From Plasmodiophora brassicae (taxonomy: Eukaryota): a stretch of DNA of 64,000 bases. The stretch is taken from assembly GCA_036867785.1 (NCBI GenBank), contig CP145418.1, positions 930,001 to 994,000 of the forward strand. Direction: 5' to 3'. Within the stretch, counting starts at the first letter, position 1; each line of letters starts with the position of its first letter. A program made the position numbers and the translations under genes. Positions 5,186 through 64,000 of this stretch are shown in pieces. The notes below the pieces were generated by a model. The model saw only the letters and a list, made by a program, of their open reading frames with translations, made no database searches and was not told where the DNA came from.

Positions 5186-5693
5186 CCGAATGAGGCTACT
5201 AGTCGAGTTCGAGTGTATATGATAAACGACCTGTGTACTTATGGTAAGACGGATCAGATGCCGTGTTGTTGTTATGGAGCTCGTCAACAACGTGCATGCC
5301 TGCGCACGTGCTGTAAGGCAAGAATGCCACATTGACAGCACCTTCGGATCATCATAAGATCGTGCCGAATACCTCTGGGGAGGACCGGGGATCGTCGACG
5401 GTGATCACGTTAATACAGTTCAACAGGGACGAATGTCTTGGCTGCCCCCCGACAATCATGATCGTATCAGCACGAAAGAAGACTTTGGTCTCGCCCCATG
5501 ACTTCAGGACCCAGCTCGCAATAACGTCACATTATTGGGTCCCGCAATTGTCCCTTGGCAGCCACACGTACTGCTGCGCCAGCAGTCGGCGAGAACTGCA
5601 GGCTGCCGACGGATGATCGACATGACTGGCACTCCGCGGGCGACCCGCGAGCCATTTGGGCATTTTGCGGGGGCCGACGCGCGGGTGTCCGCC

Positions 5694-44528: not shown

Positions 44529-47500
44529 TCAGAATTGCAGAGTGAGGATAATGACAAGCAGGACGGCGACGGTTGAATGGGATGGGGACGTCATGGCGCG
44601 GGCGGCGGCTCTTACTGTTTCAAGCGCAGCCGCAGTACACTGGTCGGAGCTGGTAACCTGCCGGCCGTCCTGGCAGACGTGCATGGTCTGCACGGTCAAC
44701 GCGTCGAACGTGGCGACGCCTGGATTGTTCGGGTCCTCGAGCGTCGCCAGGACCGCCGCCTGGTCGGCCGGCGTGGACGATTTGAAGCTGATGACGAGCG
44801 TTACCGTATTTGACGGCGCATTCACCGTCGCGGTCTCGATGATGATGCGATCCTTGCCGATGCCCAGCGCCGCGCTCTCCCCGTTCTGGAACCGGTCCTT
44901 GGCCGCGTCCAGCGATTCGAATGCCAATAACGTCATCGCGAACCGAACTCGCAGCACGTACCCGACAACGCCCCGCGTGAATCCACCAGATGGCCTCGTT
45001 GTCGCCATCGCGCGTCGAACGAGACGCATCGTCTGTGACGCCTGGTAATCGGTGGCGATCGCCAACCACCAGGACGTCTGCGGTTTAGCATTCGCGAACA
45101 CGATCGTCAATGACCTGCCCGTCGACACGATGGGAACGCCAACGGCCACGGAGACCTCGACGTTCGTCGTCGCATCGTAGACGGAGATGGACGGGGTGAT
45201 CGTCCTGAACGTCAGCTGAACGGAGCGCCCAGGTGACGACGACGTCACCGTGATGGAGCAGTCGACGTTGCCGCCCCAGATCTCGAGCTGGCGACCCAGT
45301 CCTGGGCAGACGGCCGTTGCCTGAGGGCCCTGACAGAACGCGGACGTCGTCGTCTGGATGACGGTCGTCGGCAACGGGGCGGTGCTGGCAACGGCGGTCC
45401 AGTACGAGCCGGCCTGCTGGAGCGTCGAGGTGATCGTCACTGAATGCCCCGTCAGCGCGTCGCTCATCCACACGGGGTACGTGCTGGCGCCAACGATGGC
45501 GACGGCCGAGTCGCGACCCCACATGCTGTACGACTGGAACGCCATTCGTACGATGCACTGAGGCGCGGCCGTGATCACCAACGTACAATTCGTCAGGGTG
45601 AACGACGAGATGGGAACCGGCGGCCCCGAACACGGCAGGTTCAGGTTCATCGCGCCCGTGCAGAGCGTCGGCCGAGGCACGTCGATGGCGACGATGGTCC
45701 ACGACGAGTGCGATCCGGTGACGAGCGACGAGATCGTCAGCGAACCGCCGTATGAGGTGAACGTGGGATCCCGCGACTGAAGCGGGTTGTGGGTGCGGAC
45801 CCCGTCGTCGACGTTGAGCGCGTCGCCCATTTCGTACATGCTGATCGAGGCGAACACGAGTTTCACCGAGCGCCCGGGCGTCGCCCTCACCACCACGCTG
45901 CAGTTGGTCGCCATGTAGGCGACCGATATGGTCACGTTCTGGCCGGGTCCTGCGATGGCGACGTGCTGATTTCCCGTGCAGAACGTCGGCATGGGCGGAC
46001 TGGGAACGTCAAAGGCAACGACGGTCCAGGATGACGACGACCCCAGGGTGCGCGACGAGATCGTCAGCGATCGTCCGTACGACGTGAACGATGGATAGTT
46101 CCAGTACGTCGCCACGGCGCTGTACGTGTGGTACCCGTCGCCGACGGTCAGGTAATCGCCAGACTGCCACACTTCGACGGACGAGAACAGGAGGCGGAGG
46201 GCTCGACCGGGCGTCGCGGTCACAACCAGCGTGCAATTCGGCGTGCTCGTCGACACAATCGTCGCGTTCTGCCCGGGCGCCGTCATTGCCAGGTTCATCG
46301 CGCCCGTGCAGAGCGTCGGCATCGGCGGCCTGGGGACGTCAAAGGCGGTCGCCTGCCAGGTCGAGTACGACCCCGTGATGTGCGATGCGATCGTCACCGA
46401 CGGACCGTACGACGTGAACGCCGTGTAGGACCCGGCCTGGGTCTTGTACCCGTCGGTGACGGTCAGGGTGTCCGACAACCACATACCGACGGACGAGAAT
46501 ACGACCCGGACGGCGCGCCCGGCGGTCGCCTTCACCGTCAAGGCGCAGTCGGCGGGGACGTACGCCGACGATATCGTCACGTTCTGGCCGACGCCGGCAA
46601 TGTTGAGCTCCTGGGCGCCGCTCGTGCAGAACGCTGTCGGGCGAACCGCCGCCGAAACGGATACGGCGCCGCCGGTGGTGTACAGACCAGGGCCAGCGGC
46701 GACGAACGCGATGGTCAACGTGTTGCCGGACGAGACGTACTGGCGTCCTGTCCACGACAATGACAAGGGGGCGCTGCTGCCGACGTCGTAAGCCAGAAGC
46801 CGGACGCGCTGATCGTAGTAGGTGGTCGTCGGCGTGACGGCGACGGACTGGCCCGCGTTCGTCGCGATCGTCATCGTGCAATTCTGGCCCGTCGCCCGCA
46901 CGGTGACTTGCTGGCCGGGCGTCGTCAGCGCCAGAATTTGCCCAGAGGCCCGCGTGCAGTACACCAGGCCGACTACAGGGGCGACGTCAGCGACCGAGAC
47001 GGCCCACCAGGAGCTCGCTTGCTGGATGCTGAACGCGATCGTCATCGAGCGCCCCGTCGACGTGATCGACCCGGACAGGGCGAGCGCGTTCCCGACCAGA
47101 ACGGCGATCACGGTGGACTTCGTCGTGTTGCCGTCGAAGATCGTCACGGCGTCGGACCCGTACAGGGACGCCTCCGACGTTGTGAACTGGACGACGCGGC
47201 CGGGCGTCGCCGTGATCGTCACCGCACAGTCCATCCCGGCCGAGTACACCCAGGTGTTGTCGTTCGGCGCCACGAGCGTCGCCTGCGACGCCAGACCGCA
47301 GTAGACGTAGGGCGGCGTGGTCGGCCCCGAAACGAGCGGGTGCTGGGCCTGCGACGCCCGTACGGTATCGTTGTAGGGCAGCGCGCAGGCGAACGAGCTC
47401 GTCGAGCAGTACATGGGCTGGAAGTAGGCACCGCACCTGACAGTGTCAACGTTCAGACGTCGAGCGGACGCGCGGCCGGCAGAACCCGGCGGGACGTACC

Positions 47501-49037
47501 AGCCGAACGTGGAGCAGCAGCGCCCTGGCGAGCACCCGCTGTTGCCGAACATGGGCCCGCACTGGTGGTCGGGTCGTTCCCCTCCCGAGCACGTCGGCAG
47601 CGTGTTCGTGGTCGGCACTGGGACGTCGTAGGCGCGCGCCGTCCAGCCAAAGTTCGCGTTGGCCGACGTGAACACGACGGTCATCGTGCGGCCCGTCGAG
47701 ATGGCCGTCGTCGACGTCGACGCCTCCAGGATGCTGGACGTGCCGTTGCCGTCGTAAACGACCAGGAAGTCGCCGTAGGTCAGGTACAGGTACGGGAACA
47801 CGAGCTGGACGACGTGCCCGACGCTGGCCGTGATCACGAACGTGCAGTCGAGGCCGGACGCGAACCGCCCCGTCGGATGGCTGGCGATCGACACCGACCC
47901 GCCCAGCCCGATCGGCACGTTCTGCGACGTGGCGCCCTGCTGGCTGCAGTAGTACGTCCCGTTCGTCGCCACGAACGACGTCGACGGGGCCGGCGTCGGG
48001 GCCGGCGTGCGCCCACCAGTCGTTGTTGCTTTCGAGGTCGATCGTGGCCTCGTGGTGATGATGCGGATGCGTTCGCCGACCTCATCGGCGACATACATGG
48101 TGCCGTCGGGGCCGAACGCGAGCCCGGCCGGATGCTGGAAGTTGGCGGTCAGCGACGGGCCGTCGGCGTACCCGCCGATACCGCCCGCGTACGTCGTCAC
48201 GTTGCCCAGCGGCGTCGTCACCTTCCGGATGCGGTTGCTGCCGTACTCGGCGACGAACAGGTTGCCGTTGGGGTCGAGGCGGATCCCATACGGGTAGTCG
48301 AACGTGGCCGCCAGGCCGACACCTTCCCGCGATCCGACCGTGCCGCTGCCAGCCAGCACCGATACCTTGCCGGCCGTGTCGACCTGCTTGATCTGGAAGT
48401 TGGACGTGTCGGAGACGTAGATCGTGCCGGACGGGGCGATGGCAACGCCCCAGGGCCGGCTGAACCCGCCGGCGACGGTGGACACCGTCCCGGTCGGCGT
48501 CACCTTGCGAACCAGGTTGTTGCCGGAATCGGCGACGTACAGGTTGTCGTGCGCGTCGATGGCGAGCCCGGCCGGGTTCCTGAACATGGCCGACGTGCCG
48601 TCACCGTTCATGGTCCCGGAGGTGCCGTTGCCGGCCCACGCCGTCACCGCCAGGTTGCTCGCGATCTTCACGATTATGTGACGGCGGATCAGGCTGACGA
48701 ACAGGTTGCCGTGCGAGTCGAAGACCAGGTCGGTCGGGCCGTCCAGCGTCAGGGTGCTCGTCAGGTTCAGCGTCGAGACGACGCCCGATTGCGTTACTCT
48801 CCGGATGGCGTTGTTGTCGCAGTCGGCCACGATGACGTTGTTCGTGGCCCAGTCGACGGCGACGCCGAACGGTGTGTCGAACGAGGCCAGCGCCCCGATG
48901 CCGTCGGCAGAGCCGACCTGCCCGGATCCGGCCAGCGTGTGCACGTACGGGTCGGCGTAACCGATGCTGTCCACAGCGACGAGCACCAGCAGCACGAGCA
49001 ACAGCAGCGACATGACCGGCGGCGACTTAGGCAGCAT
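44529..49037 (-). CDS. NHL-propeller / CUB-like / hevein(CBM18) surface protein, copy A (short form)
   Basis: Signal peptide from MLPKSPPVMSLLLL; NHL repeats (FRNPAGLAID..NLYVADSGNNLVRKV); CUB-like DCTFVITA..DFLVVYDG; hevein QCGPMFGNSGCSPGRCCSTFGW/CG with in-frame intron 47437-47499; hydrophobic C-terminal tail. Confidence 0.9.
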   Translation of the reverse strand: MLPKSPPVMSLLLLVLLVLVAVDSIGYADPYVHTLAGSGQVGSADGIGALASFDTPFGVAVDWATNNVIVADCDNNAIRRVTQSGVVSTLNLTSTLTLDGPTDLVFDSHGNLFVSLIRRHIIVKIASNLAVTAWAGNGTSGTMNGDGTSAMFRNPAGLAIDAHDNLYVADSGNNLVRKVTPTGTVSTVAGGFSRPWGVAIAPSGTIYVSDTSNFQIKQVDTAGKVSVLAGSGTVGSREGVGLAATFDYPYGIRLDPNGNLFVAEYGSNRIRKVTTPLGNVTTYAGGIGGYADGPSLTANFQHPAGLAFGPDGTMYVADEVGERIRIITTRPRSTSKATTTGGRTPAPTPAPSTSFVATNGTYYCSQQGATSQNVPIGLGGSVSIASHPTGRFASGLDCTFVITASVGHVVQLVFPYLYLTYGDFLVVYDGNGTSSILEASTSTTAISTGRTMTVVFTSANANFGWTARAYDVPVPTTNTLPTCSGGERPDHQCGPMFGNSGCSPGRCCSTFGWYVPPGSAGRASARRLNVDTVRCGAYFQPMYCSTSSFACALPYNDTVRASQAQHPLVSGPTTPPYVYCGLASQATLVAPNDNTWVYSAGMDCAVTITATPGRVVQFTTSEASLYGSDAVTIFDGNTTKSTVIAVLVGNALALSGSITSTGRSMTIAFSIQQASSWWAVSVADVAPVVGLVYCTRASGQILALTTPGQQVTVRATGQNCTMTIATNAGQSVAVTPTTTYYDQRVRLLAYDVGSSAPLSLSWTGRQYVSSGNTLTIAFVAAGPGLYTTGGAVSVSAAVRPTAFCTSGAQELNIAGVGQNVTISSAYVPADCALTVKATAGRAVRVVFSSVGMWLSDTLTVTDGYKTQAGSYTAFTSYGPSVTIASHITGSYSTWQATAFDVPRPPMPTLCTGAMNLAMTAPGQNATIVSTSTPNCTLVVTATPGRALRLLFSSVEVWQSGDYLTVGDGYHTYSAVATYWNYPSFTSYGRSLTISSRTLGSSSSWTVVAFDVPSPPMPTFCTGNQHVAIAGPGQNVTISVAYMATNCSVVVRATPGRSVKLVFASISMYEMGDALNVDDGVRTHNPLQSRDPTFTSYGGSLTISSLVTGSHSSWTIVAIDVPRPTLCTGAMNLNLPCSGPPVPISSFTLTNCTLVITAAPQCIVRMAFQSYSMWGRDSAVAIVGASTYPVWMSDALTGHSVTITSTLQQAGSYWTAVASTAPLPTTVIQTTTSAFCQGPQATAVCPGLGRQLEIWGGNVDCSITVTSSSPGRSVQLTFRTITPSISVYDATTNVEVSVAVGVPIVSTGRSLTIVFANAKPQTSWWLAIATDYQASQTMRLVRRAMATTRPSGGFTRGVVGYVLRVRFAMTLLAFESLDAAKDRFQNGESAALGIGKDRIIIETATVNAPSNTVTLVISFKSSTPADQAAVLATLEDPNNPGVATFDALTVQTMHVCQDGRQVTSSDQCTAAALETVRAAARAMTSPSHSTVAVLLVIILTLQF

Positions 49038-50246: not shown

Positions 50247-53200
50247 TCAGAATTGCAAAGTGAGGATAGTGACAAACAGGACGACGGCGACGGTTGAGTG
50301 GGATGGGGACGTCATGGCGCGGGCGGCCGCTCTTACTGGCTCAAGCGCAGCCGTATTACACTGGTCGGAGCTGGTAACCTGCTGGCCGTCCTGGCAGACG
50401 TACATGGTCTGCACGGTCGACGCGTCGAACGTGGCGACGCCTGGGTTGTTCGGGTCCTCGAGCGTCGCCAGGACCGCAGCCTGGTCGGCCGGCGTGGACG
50501 ATTTGAAGCTGATGACGAGCGTTACCGTATTTGACGGCGCATTCACCGTCGCGGTCTCGATGATGATGCGATCCTTGCCGATGCCCAGCGCCGCGCTCTC
50601 CCCGATCTGGAATCGGTCCTTGGCCGCGTCCAGCGATTCGGATGCCAATAACGTCATCGTGAACCGAACTCGCAGCAGGTACCCAACAACGCCCCGCGCG
50701 AATCCACCAGATGGCCTCGATGTCGCCACTGCGCGTCGAACGAGACGCAACGTCTGTGGCGCCTGGTAATCGGTGACGATCGCCAACCACCAGGCCATCT
50801 GTTGTTTAGCATTCGCAAACACGATCGTCAACGACCTGCCCGTCGACACGATGGGGACGCCGATGGCCACGGCGACCTCGGCGTTCGTCATCGCATCGTA
50901 GACAGAGATGGACGGGGCGGTCGACCTGAACGTCAGCTGAACGGAGCTCCCAGGTGACGACGACGTCACCGTGATGGAGCAGTTGACGTTGCCGCCCCAG
51001 ATCTCGAGCTGACGACCCAGTCCTGGGGAGACGGCCGTCTGATGATCGCCCTGACAGAACGCGTACGTCGTCGTCTGGATGACGGTCTTCGGCAACGGGG
51101 CGGTGCTGGCATCGGCGGTCCAGTACGAGTAGGCCCGCTGGAACGTCGAGGTGATCGTCACTGACTGCCCCGTCAGCACGTTGCCGGTCCAGGGGCGGTA
51201 CGTGCTGGCGCCGATGGTGGCGACGGCCGAGTCCCGACCCCACATGCTGTACGACGTGAACGCCAGGCGTACGGTGCACTGAGGGGCGGCCGTGATCACC
51301 AGCGTACAGTTCGCCAGGGTCAACGACGAGATGGGAACCGGCGGCCCCGAGCACGGCAAATTAAGGTGCATGACGCCCGTGCAGAACGTCGGCCGGGGCA
51401 CGTCGATGGCGACGACGGTCCATGACGAGTGCGATCCGGCGACGAGCGACGAGATCGTCCACGATCCGCCGTACGACGTGAACGTGGGATCCCACGACTG
51501 AAGCGGGTTGTGGGTGCGGAACCCGTCGTCGACGTTGAGGGTGTCGCCCATTTCATACATGCTAATCGAGGCGAACACGAGTTTCACCGAGCGCCCGGGC
51601 GTCGCGCTCACCACCATGGTGCAGTTGGTCGCCATGTACGGGACCGATATGGTCACGTTCTGGCCGGGACCTGCGATGGCGACGTGCTGGTTCCCCGTGC
51701 AGAACGTCGGCATTGGCGGGCGGGGAACGTCGATGGCAACGATGGTCCAGGACGACGACCCCAGGGTGCGCGACGAGATTGTCAGCGATCGCCCGTACGA
51801 CGTGAACGGTGGATAGTCCCAGTACGTCGCCGCGGCGCTGTACCTGTGGTAGCCGTCGTTGACGGCCAGGTAGTCGCCAGAGTGCCACACGTTGACGGAC
51901 GAGAACAGGAGGCGGAGGGCTCGACCGGGCGTCGCGGTCACCACCAGCGTGCAATTCGGCGTGCTCGTCGATACAATCGTCACGTTGTGGCCGGAGCCTT
52001 CGATGGCGACTTGCTGGTTCCCCGTACAGAACGTCGGCATTGGCGGGCGGGGGACGTCGAAGGCAACGATGGTCCAGGACGACGACGACCCCAGGATGCG
52101 CGACGAGATCGTCAGCGATCGTCCGTACGACGTGAACGATGGATAGTTCCAGTACGTCGCCGCGGCGCTGTACGTGTGGTAGCCGTCGTTGACGGCCAGG
52201 TAATCGCCAGACTGCCACACGTCGACGGACGAGAACAGGAGGCGGAGGGCTCGACCAGGCGTTGCGGTCACCACCAGCGTGCAATTCGGCGTGCTCGTCG
52301 ACGCGATCGTCACGTTCTGGCCAGGGCCTTCGATGGCGACTTGCTGGTTCCCCGTGCAGAACGTCGGCATTGGCGGGAGGGGGACGTCGAAGGCAACGAT
52401 GGTCCAGGACGATGACGACCCCAGGGTGCGCGATGAGATCGTCAGCGATCGTCCGTACGACGTGAACGATGGATAGTTCCAGTACGTCGCCGCGGCGCCG
52501 TACGTGTGGTAGCCGTCATTGACGGTCAGGTAGTCGCCAGACTGCCACACGTTGACGGACGAGAACAGGAGGTGGAGGGCTCGACCGGGCGTCGCGGTCA
52601 CCACCAGCGTGCAGTTGGTCGCCATGTACGCGGCCGTTATGGTCACGTTCTGGCCGGGGCCTTCGATGGCGACCTGCTGGTTCCCAGAGCAGAACGTCGG
52701 CATTCGCGGGCGGGGGACGTCGAAGGCAACGATGGTCCAGGACGATAACGACCCCAGGGTGCGAGATGAGATCGTCAGCGATCGTCCGTACGACGTGAAC
52801 GATGGCATAGATCCAGTACGTCGCCGCGGTGCTGTACGTGTGGTAGCCGTCGTTGACGGTCAGGTAATCGCCAGAGTGCCACAGGTCCACGGATGAAAAC
52901 ACGAGGCGGAGGGCTCGGCCGGGCGTCGCGGCCACCACCAGCGTGCAATTCGGCGTGCTCGTCGACGCAATCGTCACGTTCTGGCCGGGACCTTCGATGG
53001 CGACCTGCTGGTTCCCCGTGCAGAACGTCGGCACTGGCGGGCGGGGGACGTCGAAGGCAACGATGGTCCAGGACGACGACGACCCCAGAGTGCGCGACGA
53101 GATCGTCAGCGATCGTCCGTACGACGTGAACGGTGGATAGATCCAGTACGTCGCCGCGGCGCTGTACGTGTGGTAGCCGTCGTTGACGGTCAGGTAATCG

Positions 53201-56071
53201 CCAGACTGCCACACGTCGACGGAGGAGAACAGGAGGCGGACGGCTCGACCGGGCGTCGCGGTCACAACCAGCGTGCAATTCGGCGTGCTGGTCGACGCGA
53301 TCGTCGCGTTCTGCCCGGGCGCCGTCATTGCCAGATGCTCGGCGCCCGTGCAGAACGTCGGCATCGGCGGCCTGGGAACGTCAAAGACGGTCGCCTGCCA
53401 GGTCGAGTACGACCCCGCGATGAGCGATGTGATCGTCACCGACGGGCCGTACGACGTAAACGCTGCGTAGGACCCGGCCTTGGCCTGGTACCCGTCGGTG
53501 ACGGTCAGGGTGTCCATCCCCTGCAGGGAGACGGACGAGAACACGACCCGGACGGCGCGTCCGGCGGTCGCCTTCACCGTGAAGGTGCAGTCAGCGGGGA
53601 CGTACGCCGACGATATCGTCACGTTCTGGCCGACGCCGGCAATGTCGAGCTCCTGGACGCCGCCCGTGCAGAACGCTGTCGGGCGAACCGTTGTCGTGAC
53701 CGACACGGCGCCGGTGGTGTACAGACCGGGGCCAGCGGCGACGAACGCGATGGTCAACGTGTTGCCGGACGAGACGAATGGGCGGCCTGCCCACGACAAG
53801 GGTGCGCTGCTGCCGACGTCGTAAGCCAGGAGCCGGACGCGCGGATCGTAGTAGGTGGACATCGGCGTGACGGCGACGGACTGGCCCACGTTCGTCGTGA
53901 TCGTCATCGTGCAATTCTGCCCCGTTGCCCGGACGGTGGCTTGCTGGCCGGGCGTCGTCAGCGCCAGCGTTTGTCCAGAGGCCCGCATGCAGTACACCAG
54001 GCCGACTACCGGGGCGACGTCAGCGACCGAGACGGCCCACCAGGAGCTCGCTTGCTGGATGCTGAACGCGATCGTCATCGAGCGCCCCGTCGACGTGATC
54101 GTCCCGGACAGTGCGAGCGCGTTCCCGACCAGGACTGCGATCACGTTGGACGTCGTCGTGTTGCCGTCGAAGATCGTCACGGCGTCGGACCCGTACAGGG
54201 ACGCCTCCGTCGTTGTGAACTTGACGACCCGGCCGGGCGTCGCCGTGATCGTCACCGCACAGTCCATCCCGGCCGAGTACACCCACGTGTTGTCGTTCGG
54301 CGCCACGAGCGACGCCTGCGACGCCAGCCCGCAGTAGACGTAGGGCGGCGTAGTCGGCCCCGACCCGAGCGTGTGCTTGACCAGCGACGCCCGCACGGTA
54401 TCGTTGTAGGGCAGCGCGCAGGCGAACGTGCTCGTCGAGCAGTACAGGGGCTGGAAGTACGCACCGCACCTAACAGCGTAAACGTTCAGACGTCGAGCGG
54501 ACACGCGGCCGGCAGAACCTCGGGGAACGTACCAGCCGAACGAGGAGCAGCAGCGCCCTGGCGCGCAGCCGCTGTTGCCGAACGAGGGCCCGCACTGGTG
54601 GTCGGGCCGCTCCCCTCCCGAGCAGGTCGGCAGCGTGTTCGTGGTCGGCACGAGGACGTCGTAGACGTGCGCCGCCCAGCCAAAAGTTCGCGTTGGCCGA
54701 CGTGAACACGACGGTCATCGTGCGGCCCGTCGAGATGGCCGTCGTCGACGTCGACGCCTGCAGGATGCTGGACGTGCCTTTGCCGTCGTAGACGACCAGG
54801 AAATCGCCGTCGTCCAGGTACAGGTACGAGAACACGAGCTTGACGACGTGCCCGGCGCTGGCCGTGATCACGAACGTACAGTCGAGGCCGGACGCGAACC
54901 GTCCCGTTGGATGGCTGGCGATCGACGCCGACCCGCCCAGCCCGATCGGCACGTTCTGCGAGGTGGCGCCCTGCTGGCTGCAGTAGTACGTCCGGTTCGT
55001 CGCCAAGAACGACGTCGATGGGGCCGGCGTCGGGGCTGGCCTGCGCCCACCGGTCGTCGTTGCTTTCGCGGTCGACCGTGGCCTCGTGCCGATGACGCGG
55101 ACCCGTTCGCCGACCTCATCGGCGACGTACATGGCGCCGTCAGGGCCGAACGCGAGCCCGGCCGGATGCAGGAACTTGGCGGTCAGTGACGGGCCGTCGG
55201 CGTACCCGCCGATGCCGCCCGCGTACGTCGTCACGTTGCCCAGCGGCGTCGTCACCTTCCGGATGCGGTTGCTGCCGTACTCGGCGACGAACAGGTTGCC
55301 GTTGGTGTCGAGGCGGATTCCATACGGGTAGTCGAAGGTGGCCGCCGGGCCGACGCCTTCCTGCGACCCGACCGTGCCGCTGCCCGCCAGCACCGATACC
55401 TTGCCGGCCGTGTCGACCTGCTTGATCTGGAAGTTGGACGTGTCCGAGACGTAGATCGTGCCGGACGGGGCGATGGCAACGCCCCAGGGCCGGCTGAACC
55501 CGCCGGCGACGGTGGACACCGTCCCGGTCGGCGTCACCTTGCGAACCAGGTTGTTGCCGGAATCGGCGACGTACAGGTTGTCGTGCGCGTCGATGGCGAG
55601 CCCGGCCGGGTTCCTGAACATGGCCGACGTGCCGTCACCGTTCATGGTCCCGGAGGTGCCGTTGCCGGCCCACGCCGTCACCGCCAGGTTGCTCGCGATC
55701 TTCACGATTATGTGACGGCGGATCAGGCTGACGAACAGGTTGCCGTGCGAGTCGAAGACCAGGTCGGTCGGGCCGTCCAGCGTCAGGGTGCTCGTCAGGT
55801 TCAGCGTCGAGACGACGCCCGATTGCGTTACTCTCCGGATGGCGTTGTTGTCGCAGTCGGCCACGATGACGTTGTTCGTGGCCCAGTCGACGGCGACGCC
55901 GAACGGTGTGTCGAACGAGGCCAGCGCCCCGATGCCGTCGGCAGAGCCGACCTGCCCGGATCCGGCCAGCGTGTGCACGTACGGGTCGGCGTAACCGATG
56001 CTGTCCACAGCGACGAGCACCAGCAGCACGAGCAACAGCAGCGACATGACCGGCGGCGACTTAGGCAGCAT
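50247..56071 (-). CDS. NHL/CUB-like/hevein surface protein, copy B (chimeric; two +1 frameshifts as assembled)
   Basis: Same architecture with 4 extra repeats. Extra c near 52806 (gatggcatag vs gatggatag in copy C) and extra a near 54683 (caaaag vs caaag) split the ORF into three pieces. Confidence 0.8.
51700..53370. repeat. Intragenic tandem repeats of about 330 bp (110-aa CUB-like modules); also about 58735-60400
   Basis: Recurring PP(M/V)PTFC(T/S)GNQQVAIEG..NCTLVV.ATPGRA..SFTSYGRSLTISSR units. Confidence 0.92.
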
Positions 56072-57280: not shown

Positions 57281-60200
57281 TCAGAATTGCAAAGTGAGGA
57301 TAGTGACAAACAGGACGACGGCGACGGTTGAGTGGGATGGGGACGTCATGGCGCGGGCGGCCGCTCTTACTGGCTCAAGCGCAGCCGTATTACACTGGTC
57401 GGAGCTGGTAACCTGCTGGCCGTCCTGGCAGACGTACATGGTCTGCACGGTCGACGCGTCGAACGTGGCGACGCCTGGGTTGTTCGGGTCCTCGAGCGTC
57501 GCCAGGACCGCAGCCTGGTCGGCCGGCGTGGACGATTTGAAGCTGATGACGAGCGTTACCGTATTTGACGGCGCATTCACCGTCGCGGTCTCGATGATGA
57601 TGCGATCCTTGCCGATGCCCAGCGCCGCGCTCTCCCCGATCTGGAATCGGTCCTTGGCCGCGTCCAGCGATTCGGATGCCAATAACGTCATCGTGAACCG
57701 AACTCGCAGCAGGTACCCAACAACGCCCCGCGCGAATCCACCAGATGGCCTCGATGTCGCCACTGCGCGTCGAACGAGACGCAACGTCTGTGGCGCCTGG
57801 TAATCGGTGACGATCGCCAACCACCAGGCCATCTGTTGTTTAGCATTCGCAAACACGATCGTCAACGACCTGCCCGTCGACACGATGGGGACGCCGATGG
57901 CCACGGCGACCTCGGCGTTCGTCATCGCATCGTAGACAGAGATGGACGGGGCGGTCGACCTGAACGTCAGCTGAACGGAGCTCCCCAGGTGACGACGACG
58001 TCACCGTGATGGAGCAGTTGACGTTGCCGCCCCAGATCTCGAGCTGACGACCCAGTCCTGGGGAGACGGCCGTCTGATGATCGCCCTGACAGAACGCGTA
58101 CGTCGTCGTCTGGATGACGGTCTTCGGCAACGGGGCGGTGCTGGCATCGGCGGTCCAGTACGAGTAGGCCCGCTGGAACGTCGAGGTGATCGTCACTGAC
58201 TGCCCCGTCAGCACGTTGCCGGTCCAGGGGCGGTACGTGCTGGCGCCGATGGTGGCGACGGCCGAGTCCCGACCCCACATGCTGTACGACGTGAACGCCA
58301 GGCGTACGGTGCACTGAGGGGCGGCCGTGATCACCAGCGTACAGTTCGCCAGGGTCAACGACGAGATGGGAACCGGCGGCCCCGAGCACGGCAAATTAAG
58401 GTGCATGACGCCCGTGCAGAACGTCGGCCGGGGCACGTCGATGGCGACGACGGTCCATGACGAGTGCGATCCGGCGACGAGCGACGAGATCGTCCACGAT
58501 CCGCCGTACGACGTGAACGTGGGATCCCACGACTGAAGCGGGTTGTGGGTGCGGAACCCGTCGTCGACGTTGAGGGTGTCGCCCATTTCATACATGCTAA
58601 TCGAGGCGAACACGAGTTTCACCGAGCGCCCGGGCGTCGCGCTCACCACCATGGTGCAGTTGGTCGCCATGTACGGGACCGATATGGTCACGTTCTGGCC
58701 GGGACCTGCGATGGCGACGTGCTGGTTCCCCGTGCAGAACGTCGGCATTGGCGGGCGGGGAACGTCGATGGCAACGATGGTCCAGGACGACGACCCCAGG
58801 GTGCGCGACGAGATTGTCAGCGATCGCCCGTACGACGTGAACGGTGGATAGTCCCAGTACGTCGCCGCGGCGCTGTACCTGTGGTAGCCGTCGTTGACGG
58901 CCAGGTAGTCGCCAGAGTGCCACACGTTGACGGACGAGAACAGGAGGCGGAGGGCTCGACCGGGCGTCGCGGTCACCACCAGCGTGCAATTCGGCGTGCT
59001 CGTCGATACAATCGTCACGTTGTGGCCGGAGCCTTCGATGGCGACTTGCTGGTTCCCCGTACAGAACGTCGGCATTGGCGGGCGGGGGACGTCGAAGGCA
59101 ACGATGGTCCAGGACGACGACGACCCCAGGATGCGCGACGAGATCGTCAGCGATCGTCCGTACGACGTGAACGATGGATAGTTCCAGTACGTCGCCGCGG
59201 CGCTGTACGTGTGGTAGCCGTCGTTGACGGCCAGGTAATCGCCAGACTGCCACACGTCGACGGACGAGAACAGGAGGCGGAGGGCTCGACCAGGCGTTGC
59301 GGTCACCGACACCAGCGTGCAATTCGGCGTGCTCGTCGACGCGATCGTCACGTTCTGGCCAGGGCCTTCGATGGCGACTTGCTGGTTCCCCGTGCAGAAC
59401 GTCGGCATTGGCGGGAGGGGGACGTCGAAGGCAACGATGGTCCAGGACGATGACGACCCCAGGGTGCGCGATGAGATCGTCAGCGATCGTCCGTACGACG
59501 TGAACGATGGATAGTTCCAGTACGTCGCCGCGGCGCCGTACGTGTGGTAGCCGTCATTGACGGTCAGGTAGTCGCCAGACTGCCACACGTTGACGGACGA
59601 GAACAGGAGGTGGAGGGCTCGACCGGGCGTCGCGGTCACCACCAGCGTGCAGTTGGTCGCCATGTACGCGGCCGTTATGGTCACGTTCTGGCCGGGGCCT
59701 TCGATGGCGACCTGCTGGTTCCCAGAGCAGAACGTCGGCATTCGCGGGCGGGGGACGTCGAAGGCAACGATGGTCCAGGACGATAACGACCCCAGGGTGC
59801 GAGATGAGATCGTCAGCGATCGTCCGTACGACGTGAACGATGGATAGATCCAGTACGTCGCCGCGGTGCTGTACGTGTGGTAGCCGTCGTTGACGGTCAG
59901 GTAATCGCCAGAGTGCCACAGGTCCACGGATGAAAACACGAGGCGGAGGGCTCGGCCGGGCGTCGCGGCCACCACCAGCGTGCAATTCGGCGTGCTCGTC
60001 GACGCAATCGTCACGTTCTGGCCGGGACCTTCGATGGCGACCTGCTGGTTCCCCGTGCAGAACGTCGGCACTGGCGGGCGGGGGACGTCGAAGGCAACGA
60101 TGGTCCAGGACGACGACGACCCCAGAGTGCGCGACGAGATCGTCAGCGATCGTCCGTACGACGTGAACGGTGGATAGATCCAGTACGTCGCCGCGGCGCT

Positions 60201-63107
60201 GTACGTGTGGTAGCCGTCGTTGACGGTCAGGTAATCGCCAGACTGCCACACGTCGACGGAGGAGAACAGGAGGCGGACGGCTCGACCGGGCGTCGCGGTC
60301 ACAACCAGCGTGCAATTCGGCGTGCTGGTCGACGCGATCGTCGCGTTCTGCCCGGGCGCCGTCATTGCCAGATGCTCGGCGCCCGTGCAGAACGTCGGCA
60401 TCGGCGGCCTGGGAACGTCAAAGACGGTCGCCTGCCAGGTCGAGTACGACCCCGCGATGAGCGATGTGATCGTCACCGACGGGCCGTACGACGTAAACGC
60501 TGCGTAGGACCCGGCCTTGGCCTGGTACCCGTCGGTGACGGTCAGGGTGTCCATCCCCTGCAGGGAGACGGACGAGAACACGACCCGGACGGCGCGTCCG
60601 GCGGTCGCCTTCACCGTGAAGGTGCAGTCAGCGGGGACGTACGCCGACGATATCGTCACGTTCTGGCCGACGCCGGCAATGTCGAGCTCCTGGACGCCGC
60701 CCGTGCAGAACGCTGTCGGGCGAACCGTTGTCGTGACCGACACGGCGCCGGTGGTGTACAGACCGGGGCCAGCGGCGACGAACGCGATGGTCAACGTGTT
60801 GCCGGACGAGACGAATGGGCGGCCTGCCCACGACAAGGGTGCGCTGCTGCCGACGTCGTAAGCCAGGAGCCGGACGCGCGGATCGTAGTAGGTGGACATC
60901 GGCGTGACGGCGACGGACTGGCCCACGTTCGTCGTGATCGTCATCGTGCAATTCTGCCCCGTTGCCCGGACGGTGGCTTGCTGGCCGGGCGTCGTCAGCG
61001 CCAGCGTTTGTCCAGAGGCCCGCATGCAGTACACCAGGCCGACTACCGGGGCGACGTCAGCGACCGAGACGGCCCACCAGGAGCTCGCTTGCTGGATGCT
61101 GAACGCGATCGTCATCGAGCGCCCCGTCGACGTGATCGTCCCGGACAGTGCGAGCGCGTTCCCGACCAGGACTGCGATCACGTTGGACGTCGTCGTGTTG
61201 CCGTCGAAGATCGTCACGGCGTCGGACCCGTACAGGGACGCCTCCGTCGTTGTGAACTTGACGACCCGGCCGGGCGTCGCCGTGATCGTCACCGCACAGT
61301 CCATCCCGGCCGAGTACACCCACGTGTTGTCGTTCGGCGCCACGAGCGACGCCTGCGACGCCAGCCCGCAGTAGACGTAGGGCGGCGTAGTCGGCCCCGA
61401 CCCGAGCGTGTGCTTGACCAGCGACGCCCGCACGGTATCGTTGTAGGGCAGCGCGCAGGCGAACGTGCTCGTCGAGCAGTACAGGGGCTGGAAGTACGCA
61501 CCGCACCTAACAGCGTAAACGTTCAGACGTCGAGCGGACACGCGGCCGGCAGAACCTCGGGGAACGTACCAGCCGAACGAGGAGCAGCAGCGCCCTGGCG
61601 CGCAGCCGCTGTTGCCGAACGAGGGCCCGCACTGGTGGTCGGGCCGCTCCCCTCCCGAGCAGGTCGGCAGCGTGTTCGTGGTCGGCACGAGGACGTCGTA
61701 GACGTGCGCCGCCCAGCCAAAGTTCGCGTTGGCCGACGTGAACACGACGGTCATCGTGCGGCCCGTCGAGATGGCCGTCGTCGACGTCGACGCCTGCAGG
61801 ATGCTGGACGTGCCTTTGCCGTCGTAGACGACCAGGAAATCGCCGTCGTCCAGGTACAGGTACGAGAACACGAGCTTGACGACGTGCCCGGCGCTGGCCG
61901 TGATCACGAACGTACAGTCGAGGCCGGACGCGAACCGTCCCGTTGGATGGCTGGCGATCGACGCCGACCCGCCCAGCCCGATCGGCACGTTCTGCGAGGT
62001 GGCGCCCTGCTGGCTGCAGTAGTACGTCCGGTTCGTCGCCAAGAACGACGTCGATGGGGCCGGCGTCGGGGCTGGCCTGCGCCCACCGGTCGTCGTTGCT
62101 TTCGCGGTCGACCGTGGCCTCGTGCCGATGACGCGGACCCGTTCGCCGACCTCATCGGCGACGTACATGGCGCCGTCAGGGCCGAACGCGAGCCCGGCCG
62201 GATGCAGGAACTTGGCGGTCAGTGACGGGCCGTCGGCGTACCCGCCGATGCCGCCCGCGTACGTCGTCACGTTGCCCAGCGGCGTCGTCACCTTCCGGAT
62301 GCGGTTGCTGCCGTACTCGGCGACGAACAGGTTGCCGTTGGTGTCGAGGCGGATTCCATACGGGTAGTCGAAGGTGGCCGCCGGGCCGACGCCTTCCTGC
62401 GACCCGACCGTGCCGCTGCCCGCCAGCACCGATACCTTGCCGGCCGTGTCGACCTGCTTGATCTGGAAGTTGGACGTGTCCGAGACGTAGATCGTGCCGG
62501 ACGGGGCGACGGCAACGCCCCAGGGGCGGTTGAACCCGCTGGCGACGGTGGACACGGTCCCGGTCGGCGTCACCTTGCGAACCAGGTTGTTGCCGGAATC
62601 GGCAACGTACAGGTTGTCGTGCGCGTCGATGGTGAGCCCGGCCGGGTTTCTGAACATCGCCGACGTGCCGTTGCCGTTCATGGTCCCGGAGGTCCCGTTG
62701 CCGGCCCACGCCGTCACCGCCAGGTTGCTCGCGATCTTCACAATCATGTGCCGGCGGATCAGGCTGACGAACAGGTTGCCGTGCGAGTCGAAGACAAGGT
62801 CGGTCGGGCCGTCCAGCGTCAGGGTGCTCGTCAGGTTCAGCGTCGAGACGACGCCCGATTGCGTTACTCTCCGGATTGCGTTGTTGTCGCAGTCGGCCAC
62901 GATGACGTTGTTCGTGGCCCAGTCGACGGCGACGCCGAACGGTGTGTTGAACGTGGCCAGCGTCCCGATGCCGTCGGCAGAGCCGATCTGCCCGGATCCG
63001 GCCAGCGTTTGCACGTACGGGTCGGCGTAACCGATGCTGTCCACAGCGACGAGCACCAGCAGCACGAGCAACAGCAGCGACATGACCGGCGGCGACTTAG
63101 GCAGCAT
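57281..63107 (-). CDS. NHL/CUB-like/hevein surface protein, copy C (long form; one +1 frameshift as assembled)
   Basis: 1920-aa ORF plus a 214-aa tail ORF, separated by an extra c near 57983 (ctccccagg vs ctcccagg in copy B). Confidence 0.85.
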
Positions 63108-63263
63108 CGTGACGCGTTGTTGGACGGGAGCGCGAGCTCGTTGGTTGGGGGATATGAAAAATGAGAAGGATGCTGCCGATGGGCGGATCTCGTCCAGCCG
63201 AGATTCGCCTGTGCTCACCCGCCCAAATATCTCTGTCGTCATCCGCGCGGCATGGCGAGGGCA

Positions 63264-63287
63264 CCCCCCCCCCCCCCCCCCCCCCCC
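63264..63287. repeat. Poly-C tract (G-run on the sense strand) upstream of copy C
   Basis: Run of about 24 C, absent from the homologous position upstream of copies A and B. Confidence 0.85.
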
Positions 63288-63486
63288 GCGATATTTCACG
63301 ACACGTCGAGTTGATGAAGATCCAGGGGCGGCAACCCGATGAATCTGGGACGCGAGCACGCGTATCCGTCCAGCCTGCCCTGGCCGCCCTCGGCAGGTGC
63401 CATTGGCACGCGAATCCCGCGTCCCCTCGCCCAGGACCGCGTCGTACGCGAGTGGCCACCACACTTCGTGTATTGGTGTACGTTCG

Positions 63487-64000
63487 TCATTGGCAATGCA
63501 CGGTGAGGACTGTGAAGAGGAGGACGTAGGCGAGGGTCGCGGGTGATGGCGACACGGGGCGGGCGGCGCTGACCGTCTCTGGCTCGGCAGGGGCACCGGC
63601 ACGGCACCTGTCCGCGCTGGTGACCTGCTGGCCGTTCCGGCAGACGTACGTCGTCTGTACGGTCGACGGGTCCAGCGTGCCGACGCCCGAGCCGATCGAG
63701 AGCGCCGCCAGCAGCGCCGCCTGGTCGGCCGACGTTGTCGACGTGAAACGGACCTGGAGCGTTGCCGTGTTCGCCTGCGCGCCCATCGCTGCGTGTACGA
63801 CGCTGACCCGATCCATGGCGATGCCCAGCGCGGCGCTCTCCCCGTTCGCGAACCGGACCTGGGCGTCGCCCAACGACTCGCCGACCCGCAACGTCATCGT
63901 GAAGCTCGCTTGCAGCAGGTACGCGACGACATCGCCTGTTGAGCCACCGGGCGGCCCCGTTGTGGGACGACCCGCGATCAGCGTCCTCGTGGTCGGTGTC
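63487..64000 (-). CDS. 3' end of a fourth, more divergent family member (copy D)
   Basis: RFANGESAALGIAMDR..ADQAALLA..STVQTTYVCRNGQQVTSADRC..YVLLFTVLTVHCQ, homologous to the C-termini of copies A-C. Confidence 0.85.
   Translation of the reverse strand, partial: TPTTRTLIAGRPTTGPPGGSTGDVVAYLLQASFTMTLRVGESLGDAQVRFANGESAALGIAMDRVSVVHAAMGAQANTATLQVRFTSTTSADQAALLAALSIGSGVGTLDPSTVQTTYVCRNGQQVTSADRCRAGAPAEPETVSAARPVSPSPATLAYVLLFTVLTVHCQ

What the first reader, a model, noticed from the sequence alone, without database searches (positions are those of the whole stretch)
44529..64000. Tandem array of modular NHL-CUB-hevein surface proteins with a variable repeat stalk
Seen: at least 4 head-to-tail paralogs encoding signal peptide, NHL repeats, Pro/Thr linker, CUB-like module, one hevein-type Cys motif, many N-glycosylation-rich CUB-like modules, an RLVRRA basic site, a conserved juxtamembrane domain and a hydrophobic tail with no cytoplasmic part. 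Established: hevein/CBM18 binds chitin, NHL repeats form beta-propellers, CUB domains mediate extracellular interactions. Inference: a GPI-anchored adhesin/lectin family, possibly masking chitin or attaching to host walls, that diversifies by copy number and stalk length. I do not recognise this domain combination as a described family.
Basis: partly seen in the sequence, partly recalled or inferred. Interest (0 to 1): 0.85.

Follow-up and report, generated by a model that had tools for sequence, protein, structure and literature searches.

The report
Clubroot parasite's chitin-binding stalk protein array
The clubroot parasite Plasmodiophora brassicae carries a tandem row of four genes for very large, probably membrane-anchored surface proteins that combine a propeller-shaped binding head, one chitin-binding module and a stalk of repeated units whose number differs between copies; the design is real, expressed and undescribed, but its job is still inferred.

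Summary
Window 44.5-64 kb (minus strand) carries three full head-to-tail paralogs and the tail of a fourth. The top protein match names Plasmodiophora brassicae.

**Architecture**
- Signal peptide, then a six-repeat NHL propeller and a Pro/Thr linker.
- Four, 7 or 11 further CUB-like modules.
- An orphan domain that models as a ferredoxin-like beta-alpha-beta-beta-alpha-beta fold.
- A GPI-type hydrophobic tail.

**Expression and copy state**
- Copy 1 is intact. Contigs of 3 of 4 public runs lack the intron, and one carries a poly(A) end.
- Copies 2 and 3 are 99% alike. Each has single-base frame breaks in this assembly. An intact 1920-aa version exists in another assembly.

**Distribution and literature**
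- No relative was found outside P. brassicae.
- No paper on the architecture was found.

**Points not supported**
- N-glycosylation sequons are not enriched.
- RLVRRA is absent from copy 4.
- The CUB/hevein fold model failed; those assignments rest on sequence.

**Reading**
The best reading is a surface-anchored lectin/adhesin whose hevein module binds the parasite's own chitin. Function is inferred. It is a new variant of a known kind, of moderate interest.

The parts
44529..49037 (-). Copy 1 coding region, intact: 1502 codons as read through, 1481/1473 aa after splicing. Equals public P0127/P0004.
   Evidence: P0004 is 99% identical.
44392..44528 (-). 3' untranslated region of copy 1, ending at a poly(A) addition site near 44392.
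   Evidence: table 7: run X1 contig ends at 44392 with 24 loose T on the + strand. The X5 contig ends at 44399.
48954..49037 (-). Signal peptide (MLPKSPPVM + LLLLVLLVLVAV + DSIGYA).
   Evidence: Sequence; hydropathy (best 10-residue mean 3.92). No predictor was run.
48060..48953 (-). NHL beta-propeller, six repeats.
   Evidence: Pfam NHL E 3.7e-30. PDB sequence hits: teneurin-like 6.1e-30, SOQ1 5.6e-24, PknD sensor 5.1e-20. Four repeats match a strict pattern; two more were seen by eye.
47976..48059 (-). Pro/Thr/Ser-rich linker.
   Evidence: Sequence.
47595..47975 (-). CUB module A, before the hevein module.
   Evidence: Pfam CUB 19.5 bits alone. Family HMM E 7.5e-39.
47385..47594 (-). Hevein/CBM18 module with eight Cys, in two exons.
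   Evidence: PDB phmmer: UDA 1eis E 2.6e-8, hevein 1t0w 0.0068. Pfam Chitin_bind_1 gives 17.8 bits, below the cutoff of 27.8.
47437..47499 (-). 63-nt GT..AG intron inside the hevein module, in frame and stop-free.
   Evidence: Sequence. Public model P0004 lacks these 21 codons. Contigs of X1, X2 and X15 skip it (table 5).
45030..47309 (-). Stalk of copy 1: seven CUB-like modules B to H.
   Evidence: Profile against PDB: cubilin E 1.6e-10. Atlas features place modules E and F nearest CUB clusters at 0.92.
44973..45029 (-). Flexible linker holding RLVRRA (copies 1-3 only).
   Evidence: alignment. Model residues 1-19 have pLDDT under 50.
44673..44969 (-). Orphan membrane-proximal domain with a ferredoxin-like beta-alpha-beta-beta-alpha-beta fold (the topology recalled for SEA domains).
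   Evidence: AF2 block pLDDT 83-92. Fold searches give best Z 7.8, SEA-containing chains 6.1-6.7, all tied. No Pfam family. The only true sequence relatives are its own paralogs.
44532..44609 (-). GPI-type C-terminal signal: small residues (AAARA), a polar spacer (MTSPSHS) and a 14-residue hydrophobic end.
   Evidence: Read by eye; no GPI predictor was on hand.
50247..56071 (-). Copy 2, long form with 12 CUB-like modules. The frame is broken near 54685 and near 52806 in this assembly.
57281..63107 (-). Copy 3, long form with 12 CUB-like modules. The frame is broken near 57986 in this assembly.
51708..53358 (-). Five tandem E-type modules of copy 2, period 330-333 nt.
58743..60395 (-). Five tandem E-type modules of copy 3, period 330-333 nt. 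Copy 1 has one.
63487..64000 (-). Tail of copy 4 (short form, 5 modules, 1180/1187 aa in public models). It runs off the window.
   Evidence: 100% to P0129 residues 1018-1187.

Best explanation
The array encodes a P. brassicae-restricted family of large secreted glycoprotein-like molecules that stay on the parasite surface through a GPI-type C-terminal signal.

Each molecule is built as follows, from the membrane outwards:
- a compact ferredoxin-like domain;
- a rod of 4, 7 or 11 CUB-like beta-sandwich modules;
- one hevein/CBM18 chitin-binding module;
- one more CUB;
- a flexible Pro/Thr linker;
- a six-bladed NHL propeller of the ligand-binding type (PknD sensor or teneurin-like).

The host has no chitin. 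The hevein module therefore most likely grips the parasite's own chitin, in the resting-spore or cyst wall. This would tether membrane to wall and coat the chitin, while the propeller is shown at the outer face as a binding head. Stalk length changes by gain or loss of whole 110-residue modules, and the gene has multiplied in tandem.

Shown here: the domain content, the intron, transcription of copy 1, the module counts, and the restriction to this species in the databases searched.

Inferred: the GPI anchoring, chitin binding, the cis (own-wall) target, and the role of stalk length.
For: - Organism and gene models: P0004 'CUB domain-containing protein [Plasmodiophora brassicae]' is 99% identical.
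- NHL: Pfam E 3.7e-30. The nearest solved proteins are binding-type propellers, not enzymes.
- CUB: the whole protein passes Pfam (59.5 bits against 21.4). The 8-module profile hits cubilin at 1.6e-10, enteropeptidase at 6.9e-6 and spermadhesin PSP-II at 0.002. The first CUB disulfide pair is invariant (C10 and C44 of A1).
- Hevein: after splicing, E 2.6e-8 to nettle agglutinin. The CCS-x-aromatic-G-W-CG core and the following Tyr are aligned.
- P. brassicae CBM18 proteins PbChiB2 and PbChiB4 bind chitin and spores in vitro (bioRxiv 10.1101/2020.12.23.423615, passages read).
- Anchoring: a signal peptide, and a C-terminal 14-15-residue hydrophobic end with no residues after it. It is preceded by small residues and a polar spacer, and these features are kept in the 47%-identical copy 4.
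- Expression: the 63-nt intron is skipped in contigs of 3 of 4 runs from 3 studies; the fourth has no cover there. One contig has a 24-nt poly(A) end.
- Constraint: dN/dS is 0.31 for NHL (49 differences), 0.28 for hevein exon 1 (only 8 differences), 0.30 for CUB-B (13 differences) and 0.26 for CUB-F (23 differences).
- Stalk variation: 8, 12, 12 and 5 modules. E-type units recur at a 330-333-nt period and are 91-95% alike.
Against: - No function was tested.
- The hevein module is below Pfam's cutoff (17.8 against 27.8 bits). Its last loop is longer than in the PROSITE pattern as I recall it.
- Only 1 of 8 stalk modules passes the Pfam CUB cutoff on its own. The usual second CUB disulfide is absent.
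- The AF2 model of CUB-A + hevein + CUB-B failed (mean pLDDT 41.2), so no fold check of these modules exists.
- GPI anchoring rests on reading the tail by eye. No predictor was run, and the parasite's GPI machinery was not checked because no genome is held.
- Copy 4 has a weak signal-peptide core.
- Two of the three full copies in the window have broken frames.
- dN/dS is near 1 in modules D, G and H (0.99, 0.73, 0.85), so part of the stalk is loosely constrained.
- The life stage of expression is unknown.
Confidence: 0.55

Rival explanations
1. Host-directed adhesin. The NHL propeller and/or distal CUB modules bind a root-hair wall polymer or a host protein during zoospore attachment or inside the host cell. 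The hevein module is accessory.
For: The propeller is the outermost domain and is under purifying selection (dN/dS 0.31). Its closest solved relatives are extracellular sensor or adhesion propellers: PknD, teneurin-like. The GPI-type anchor plus a repeat stalk is the layout of fungal adhesins (recalled).
Against: No ligand is known. Nothing here links expression to zoospores. The conserved hevein module would be left without a target on the host.
Confidence: 0.2
2. Shed chitin-masking effector. The ectodomain is released, by cleavage at the dibasic RLVRRA linker or by anchor cleavage, and sequesters chitin fragments to damp chitin-triggered immunity, as reported for PbChiB2 and PbChiB4.
For: RLVRRA sits in a linker modelled as disordered (pLDDT under 50) in copies 1-3. 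CBM18 effectors of this species suppress chitin-triggered MAPK activation (passages).
Against: The basic site is missing in copy 4. There is a single CBM18 in a 1200-1900-aa protein, whereas the studied effectors are small with two modules. The conserved anchor signal argues for retention on the surface.
Confidence: 0.12
3. Mostly decaying gene array. The long copies are pseudogenes, only copy 1 (and perhaps copy 4) still works, and stalk variation is neutral repeat slippage.
For: There are three single-base frame breaks in copies 2 and 3. dN/dS is near 1 in modules D, G and H. The annotation of this assembly models only a 707-aa piece of copy 2 (P0124).
Against: An intact 1920-aa long copy is on record from another assembly (P0130). 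Two of the three breaks lie in short single-base runs, which is typical of assembly error. Copies 2 and 3 are otherwise open over about 5.8 kb.
Confidence: 0.15
4. Surface enzyme. The NHL propeller is catalytic (lactonase, lyase or PAL-like), and the CUB/hevein part only positions it on chitin.
For: Weak Pfam overlaps with Vgb_lyase (40.4 bits, below the cutoff of 50), SGL (34.2 bits) and Arylesterase.
Against: These overlaps are the usual cross-hits among six-bladed propellers. The best solved matches are non-enzymatic. No catalytic residues were identified.
Confidence: 0.05

Closest known systems
P. brassicae CBM18 proteins PbChiB1-4, PbChiBD1-6 and PbChiBT1 (bioRxiv 10.1101/2020.12.23.423615; Schwelm et al. 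2015, PMC4471660)
   Same: Same organism; secreted; carry hevein/CBM18 modules. PbChiB2 and PbChiB4 bind chitin and spores (passages read).
   Different: Those are small CBM18-only proteins or CBM18 fused to deacetylase or tyrosinase. None is described with NHL, CUB or a membrane anchor: 'NHL', 'CUB' and 'GPI' each occur 0 times in that preprint.
Urtica dioica agglutinin, hevein domain 2 (PDB 1eis, 1ehd, 1iqb)
   Same: Best sequence match of the hevein module (E 2.6e-8 to 6.7e-7). The match includes the stretch before the first Cys-Gly and the CCS..GWCG core.
   Different: UDA is an 89-residue two-hevein plant lectin. Here a single module has a loop two residues longer than UDA's in the alignment, and it sits inside a giant multidomain protein.
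Metazoan CUB-array proteins with SEA domains (cubilin 3kq4; enteropeptidase 8zj4; Gpr126 6v55)
   Same: Tandem CUB modules. A membrane-proximal alpha/beta domain of the same topology.
   Different: No sequence link to SEA. The second CUB disulfide is missing. The organism is a rhizarian parasite, the head is an NHL propeller, and the anchor is GPI-type rather than a transmembrane helix.
Fungal GPI-anchored adhesins with tandem-repeat stalks (Als, Flo, Epa; recalled, not searched)
   Same: Works alike in layout: an N-terminal binding domain, a repeat stalk of variable length, a GPI signal, and gene arrays that vary in copy and repeat number.
   Different: No homology. Fungal stalks are Ser/Thr-rich low-complexity repeats, whereas here the stalk is built of folded CUB-like modules.
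Extracellular NHL propellers (M. tuberculosis PknD sensor 1rwi; bacterial teneurin-like 9ifo)
   Same: Six NHL blades, extracellular, no known catalysis.
   Different: Those are attached to kinases or toxin-like shells, not to CUB or hevein modules.

Membership tests
NHL repeat beta-propeller (Pfam PF01436) | Repeats score above the Pfam gathering cutoff | tested here: met
   102.9 bits against a cutoff of 20, E 3.7e-30, 4 stretches.
NHL repeat beta-propeller (Pfam PF01436) | Six blades closing a propeller | tested here: inconclusive
   Six repeat units at about 45-53-residue spacing were seen by eye. Four match a strict pattern. No structure model of this part was made.
CUB domain (Pfam PF00431) | Score above the Pfam gathering cutoff | tested here: met
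   Whole protein: 59.5 bits (P0004) and 93.5 bits (P0002) against a cutoff of 21.4. Taken alone, only module B passes (28.7 bits). A scores 19.5 and F 12.9; C, D, E, G and H have no hit (1 of 8).
CUB domain (Pfam PF00431) | Profile of the repeat modules recognises solved CUB domains | tested here: met
   Cubilin E 1.6e-10, enteropeptidase 6.9e-6, PSP-II 0.002. Atlas features place E and F modules nearest CUB clusters at 0.92 (a lead only).
CUB domain (Pfam PF00431) | Two conserved disulfides (four Cys; feature recalled) | tested here: not met
   Only one Cys pair is invariant across the 8 modules (C10 and C44 of A1). Some known CUBs also have a single pair (recalled).
CUB domain (Pfam PF00431) | Beta-sandwich (jelly-roll) fold | tested here: inconclusive
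   The AF2 model of CUB-A + hevein + CUB-B has mean pLDDT 41.2. It is all-beta but unusable.
Hevein / CBM18 (Pfam PF00187) | Score above the Pfam gathering cutoff | tested here: not met
   17.8 bits (P0004) and 18.4 bits (P0005) against a cutoff of 27.8. The match covers profile positions 1-32 of 38.
Hevein / CBM18 (Pfam PF00187) | Sequence similarity to solved hevein domains, with the Cys framework and the Ser/aromatic sugar-binding positions | tested here: met
   UDA E 2.6e-8, pokeweed lectin-C 2.4e-5, hevein 0.0068. Eight Cys are present. The CCS-T-F-G-W-CG-A-Y string aligns with CCS-x-W/H-G-W-CG...Y. The roles of these positions are recalled.
Hevein / CBM18 (Pfam PF00187) | Binds chitin or chito-oligomers | not testable with these tools
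   Needs a binding assay.
SEA domain | beta-alpha-beta-beta-alpha-beta sandwich next to the membrane | tested here: met
   AF2 elements E29-41, H48-63, E70-78, E83-92, H95-106 and E115-127, block pLDDT 83-92.
SEA domain | Specific structural or sequence similarity to SEA above other ferredoxin-like folds | tested here: inconclusive
   SEA-containing chains score Z 6.1-6.7 (6v55, 9nrc, 1ivz), within 1.7 of the unrelated top rows at Z 7.8. Foldseek gives nothing at E <= 0.001. No Pfam family at E <= 1.
SEA domain | G/SVVV-type autoproteolysis motif between strands 2 and 3 (feature recalled; not universal) | tested here: not met
   The turn reads NAPSN in copies 1-3 and GAQAN in copy 4.
GPI-anchored proteins | N-terminal signal peptide plus a C-terminal hydrophobic end with no cytoplasmic residues, preceded by small residues and a polar spacer | tested here: met
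   Read: AAARA / MTSPSHS / TVAVLLVIILTLQF. Copy 4 reads SAA / RPVSPSPAT / LAYVLLFTVLTVHCQ.
GPI-anchored proteins | Accepted by a trained predictor, or released by PI-PLC | not testable with these tools
   No GPI predictor is on hand, and no genome is held to look for the transamidase.

The most novel reading that the evidence does not exclude
The family is a wall-spanning 'ruler'. GPI-anchored stalks of 4, 7 or 11 rigid CUB modules would set how far from the plasma membrane the chitin layer of the spore or cyst wall is held. They would also expose a variable propeller that host plants could learn to recognise, so copy and module number would track pathotype.

Its parts would be a rare convergence: metazoan-style CUB plus SEA-like modules in a rhizarian, joined to a hevein module that is closest to a nettle lectin and may have been captured from a plant. 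Expression may be tuned by a spliced antisense RNA seen over the stalk.
Probability: 0.1. Interest if true: 0.75.

Novelty: new variant of a known kind. Interest (0 to 1): 0.5.

Why it matters
Clubroot is a major Brassica disease, and very few surface or wall proteins of its agent are known. This family offers three things:
- a candidate membrane-to-chitin-wall tether or adhesin;
- a handle for antibodies against spores or zoospores;
- a locus whose copy and repeat number may differ between isolates. One assembly models the long form as a single intact 1920-aa protein, whereas this one holds two 99%-identical long copies.

The family was probably overlooked for two reasons. The older reference model is a 527-aa fragment that reads into the hevein intron (P0128, PBRA_007156). 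The hevein module also falls below Pfam's cutoff.

It also adds an orphan domain with a confident fold, and a rare case of tandem CUB modules outside animals.

Tried and rejected
- **Whole-genome search.** No genome is held for this window.
- **Fold model of CUB-A + hevein + CUB-B.** Built from a 3-row alignment, it gave mean pLDDT 41.2 and was not searched further.
- **C-terminal domain against fold libraries.**
  - Foldseek on PDB gave no match at E <= 0.001.
  - VIA-align, wide and second look, gave a best Z of 7.8 among many unrelated ferredoxin-like chains.
  - I therefore do not call it an SEA domain.
- **C-terminal domain against sequence resources.**
  - Pfam found 0 families.
  - The Atlas gave a best score of 0.84 to unnamed clusters.
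  - The 1.84-billion representative library gave 4 hits at E <= 0.001. Two are its own paralogs. Two (P0125, P0126) are unrelated repetitive proteins, which I dropped after reading them.
- **Relatives elsewhere.**
  - The word-based search of residues 340-1473 found only P0004 and P0005 at near length and only P0124 at shorter length.
  - Two metagenome scans, with A2 and with A3, confirmed none of 122 and 62 pattern matches.
  - These collections may lack other phytomyxids such as Spongospora and Polymyxa, so absence there is not shown.
- **RNA runs.** No listed holder is on record as RNA; all kinds were guesses. What contigs cannot show (level, strand, start) I leave open.
- **Literature.**
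  - Plasmodiophora + 'NHL repeat': 0 papers.
  - Plasmodiophora + 'CUB domain': 1 paper, which mentions it only as a keyword.
  - PBRA_007156: 0 papers. Six protein accessions: 0 papers.
  - Supplements of PMC4471660 (3 files) and PMC8595600 (1 file) hold neither the gene id nor CUB/NHL as domains.
  - bioRxiv supplements are closed. The table of CBM18 proteins in 10.1101/2020.12.23.423615 was not seen and could list these genes.
- **Plus-strand ORFs over the array.** The ORFs of 728, 672, 511 and 151 aa gave no Pfam family. The 211-aa ORF gave only a sub-threshold Magnetochrome match (20.4 bits against 30.4). I treat all five as high-GC artefacts.
- **N-glycosylation richness.** Rejected.
- **Earlier notes of this scan.** Nothing at this place, by sequence or by words.
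Full report
**What is there**

The window has about 60% G+C, and several neighbouring genes are visibly split by introns (partial Pfam matches). No prokaryote genome is held for it. The top protein match is 'CUB domain-containing protein [Plasmodiophora brassicae]' at 99% identity (P0004). Earlier notes of this scan on other pieces of the same genome also name the clubroot parasite.

tblastn of P0004 and of the longer public model P0130 maps four head-to-tail genes on the minus strand:

| Copy | Window coordinates | State in this assembly |
|---|---|---|
| 1 | 44532-49037 | one open frame |
| 2 | 50250-56071 | three frames |
| 3 | 57284-63107 | two frames |
| 4 | 63490-63999 (last 170 codons only) | runs off the window |

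The copy 4 tail is identical to the C-terminus of the public 1180/1187-aa proteins P0005 and P0129. P0005, the '64% identical paralog', is therefore simply the next gene of the array.

**Anatomy of copy 1**

- **Signal peptide.** It has a strongly hydrophobic core.
- **NHL region.**
  - Pfam E 3.7e-30, with six repeat units. Four fit a strict pattern; two more were seen by eye.
  - Its nearest solved relatives are bacterial teneurin-like proteins (6.1e-30), Arabidopsis SOQ1 (5.6e-24), the PknD sensor propeller (5.1e-20) and TRIM71. These are binding-type propellers.
- **Linker and first CUB.** A Pro/Thr/Ser linker is followed by CUB module A.
- **Hevein module.**
The intron is in frame and stop-free.
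  - The public models remove it, giving ...CCSTFGW-CGAYFQPMYC....
  - Unspliced, Pfam Chitin_bind_1 scores E 0.11. Spliced, it scores E 0.004 and 17.8 bits, still below the cutoff of 27.8.
  - A direct sequence search of solved structures is clearer: Urtica dioica agglutinin domain 2 at E 2.6e-8, pokeweed lectin-C at 2.4e-5, hevein at 0.0068 to 0.073. The CCS-x-aromatic-G-W-CG core and the stretch before the first Cys-Gly are aligned.
  - I accept it as a hevein/CBM18-type module on sequence. Pfam membership by score is not met.
- **Stalk.**
  - Seven modules of 104-114 residues follow (B to H). They share one invariant Cys pair and a G..V.L.F / D.L.V.DG / S.G.SLTI pattern.
  - Taken alone, only module B passes the Pfam CUB cutoff (1 of 8).
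  - A profile of the eight modules finds cubilin (1.6e-10), enteropeptidase (6.9e-6) and spermadhesin PSP-II (0.002).
  - The protein-language-model atlas puts modules E and F nearest CUB clusters (0.92, all ten best named hits CUB, a lead only).
  - The second disulfide usual in CUB domains (recalled) is absent.
  - The attempt to model CUB-A + hevein + CUB-B failed (mean pLDDT 41.2). The CUB and hevein assignments therefore rest on sequence, not on a fold.
- **Membrane-proximal part.**
  - After the last CUB comes a linker that models as disordered and holds RLVRRA in copies 1-3 but not in copy 4.
  - A roughly 100-residue domain follows that has no Pfam family.
  - Its only true relatives among 1.84 billion representatives are its own paralogs. 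Of 4 hits at E <= 0.001, two were unrelated repetitive proteins that I dropped after reading them.
  - From a 5-row alignment it models with block pLDDT 83-92 as beta-alpha-beta-beta-alpha-beta.
  - Fold searches give only the generic ferredoxin-like sandwich: Foldseek has nothing at E <= 0.001, and the best VIA Z is 7.8.
  - SEA-containing chains (Gpr126, TMPRSS6, MUC16-like) appear at Z 6.1-6.7, tied with many unrelated folds.
  - The topology and the position next to the membrane match what I recall of SEA domains. Membership is inconclusive, and the recalled autoproteolysis motif is not there.
- **C-terminal end.**
  - A conserved two-Cys loop and a helix follow.
  - The tail reads small residues (AAARA), a polar spacer (MTSPSHS) and 14 hydrophobic residues ending the protein.
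  - Copy 4 keeps this layout with a different sequence.
  - That is the layout of a GPI attachment signal. No predictor was available.

**The array and its variation**

A family HMM counts 8 CUB-like modules in copy 1, 12 in each of copies 2 and 3, and 5 in copy 4. This comes from 34 hits, of which two modules are each split in two by a frame break. The difference between copy 1 and the long copies is four extra 'E-type' modules. These form a tandem run of 330-333-nt units that are 91-95% alike.

Copies 2 and 3 are 99.07% identical over 6338 nt, flanks included, with 34 mismatches in 6322 aligned columns. They differ in length by single bases at three places inside the coding region: near 54685 and 52806 in copy 2, and near 57986 in copy 3. 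Two of these lie in short single-base runs, and they break the frames.

An intact 1920-aa long form with 12 modules is on record from another assembly (P0130). It is 97-100% identical to the pieces of copies 2 and 3. Whether the breaks are assembly errors or real in this isolate cannot be told here.

The older reference annotation holds only a 527-aa fragment of copy 4 that reads into the hevein intron (P0128, PBRA_007156). The annotation of this assembly models only a 707-aa piece of copy 2 (P0124).

**Selection**

Nei-Gojobori estimates are given below. The counts are small.

| Region | Comparison | dN/dS |
|---|---|---|
| NHL | copy 1 vs 3 | 0.31 (26 synonymous, 23 non-synonymous differences) |
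| Hevein exon 1 | copy 1 vs 3 | 0.28 |
| CUB-B | copy 1 vs 3 | 0.30 |
| CUB-C | copy 1 vs 3 | 0.39 |
| CUB-A | copy 1 vs 3 | 0.68 |
| CUB-D | copy 1 vs 3 | 0.99 |
| CUB-F | copy 1 vs 2 | 0.26 |
| CUB-G | copy 1 vs 2 | 0.73 |
| CUB-H | copy 1 vs 2 | 0.85 |
| C-terminal fold | copy 1 vs 2 | 0.59 |

The head and the hevein module are constrained and parts of the stalk only loosely. Nothing shows positive selection.

**Expression**

Twenty public runs from nine studies hold most of copy 1. Their kind is only guessed. I laid contigs of four runs from four studies.

- Contigs of X1, X2 and X15 join 47434 to 47498, skipping exactly the 63-nt intron with GT..AG on the gene strand. X5 has no cover there.
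- An X1 contig ends at 44392 with 24 loose T on the plus strand. This is a poly(A) tail 137 nt after the stop codon.
- I take this as transcription, splicing and polyadenylation of copy 1. Level, strand and life stage cannot be read from contigs.

**Distribution and literature**

Of the 120 hits listed, only P0004 and P0005 cover more than the propeller. The other 118 cover 15-26% of the query and come mostly from bacterial genomes or from unnamed metagenome records.

Searches with residues 340-1473 found only P0004 and P0005 at near length and P0124 at shorter length. Two metagenome scans found nothing. These collections may not hold other phytomyxids.

Papers on P. brassicae CBM18 proteins describe small CBM18-only, deacetylase-fused and tyrosinase-fused proteins (passages of bioRxiv 10.1101/2020.12.23.423615 and PMC4471660). 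A 2026 annotation paper mentions 'spermadhesin CUB domain' only as a keyword (passages). Searches for NHL repeat, the gene id and six accessions returned no paper. bioRxiv supplements are closed, so the preprint's protein table was not seen.

**How it most likely works**

The shown parts add up to a secreted molecule held at the cell surface by its C-terminus. A folded-module rod carries a chitin-binding module and a propeller at its far end.

Brassica has no chitin, whereas P. brassicae resting-spore walls do (stated). The hevein module's natural partner is therefore the parasite's own wall chitin. I favour a membrane-to-wall tether or chitin coat that also displays the propeller as a binding head (confidence about 0.55).

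The rivals are:
- a host-directed adhesin (0.2);
- a shed chitin-masking effector, cut at the dibasic linker (0.12);
- a largely decaying array (0.15, for the long copies);
- a surface enzyme (0.05).

**Verdict**

The finding is real and largely as described. The intron, the module counts, the non-enriched sequons and the non-conserved basic site are corrections. Each domain type is known and the overall logic (head, repeat stalk, anchor) is that of known adhesins. The combination, the orphan membrane-proximal domain and the CUB stalk in a rhizarian are undescribed. It is a new variant of a known kind, of moderate interest.

Noticed in passing
window 45930-45980 (+): Contigs of 3 of 4 runs (X1, X5, X15) skip these 51 nt with GT..AG on the plus strand, antisense to copy 1. 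There is a CTGAT branch-like motif and a pyrimidine run before the AG. X2 holds the unskipped form. It looks like a spliced antisense transcript over the CUB-E/F boundary. In the gene's sense it would instead remove 17 codons, including the first Cys of module F.
   Followed up: partly
window 38918-41374 (+): An 818-aa protein with a hydrophobic C-terminal half that looks multi-pass by eye. Its only Pfam hit is Chitin_synth_1, below cutoff (E 0.0057, 17.1 against 25 bits). It holds a QQWRW string resembling the QxxRW of processive GT2 enzymes (motif recalled). There is no PDB sequence hit. It is possibly a divergent chitin-synthase-like gene, about 3 kb from the array.
   Followed up: partly
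window 8415-10483 (+) and 22439-24504 (-): Inverted duplication (76-93% complementary arms) of a gene for a TPR + glycosyltransferase family 61 protein of 725 and 719 aa.
   Followed up: no
window 47385-47594 (-): The hevein module is much closer to nettle agglutinin domain 2, including the residues before the first Cys-Gly, than to hevein itself (E 2.6e-8 against 0.007-0.07). A plant-like affinity is worth a phylogeny.
   Followed up: no
window 63280-63300 (-), upstream of copy 3: The 5' flank of copy 3 has a run of about 25 G where copy 2 has none, a 21-nt length difference between otherwise 99%-identical units.
   Followed up: no
window 42146-42994 (+), 28639-29589 (-), 5613-6425 (+): Partial Pfam matches (phosphomannose isomerase helical insert, Cpn60_TCP1 positions 244-344, adh_short from profile position 27) show neighbouring genes split by introns. 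This agrees with a eukaryote that has short introns.
   Followed up: no
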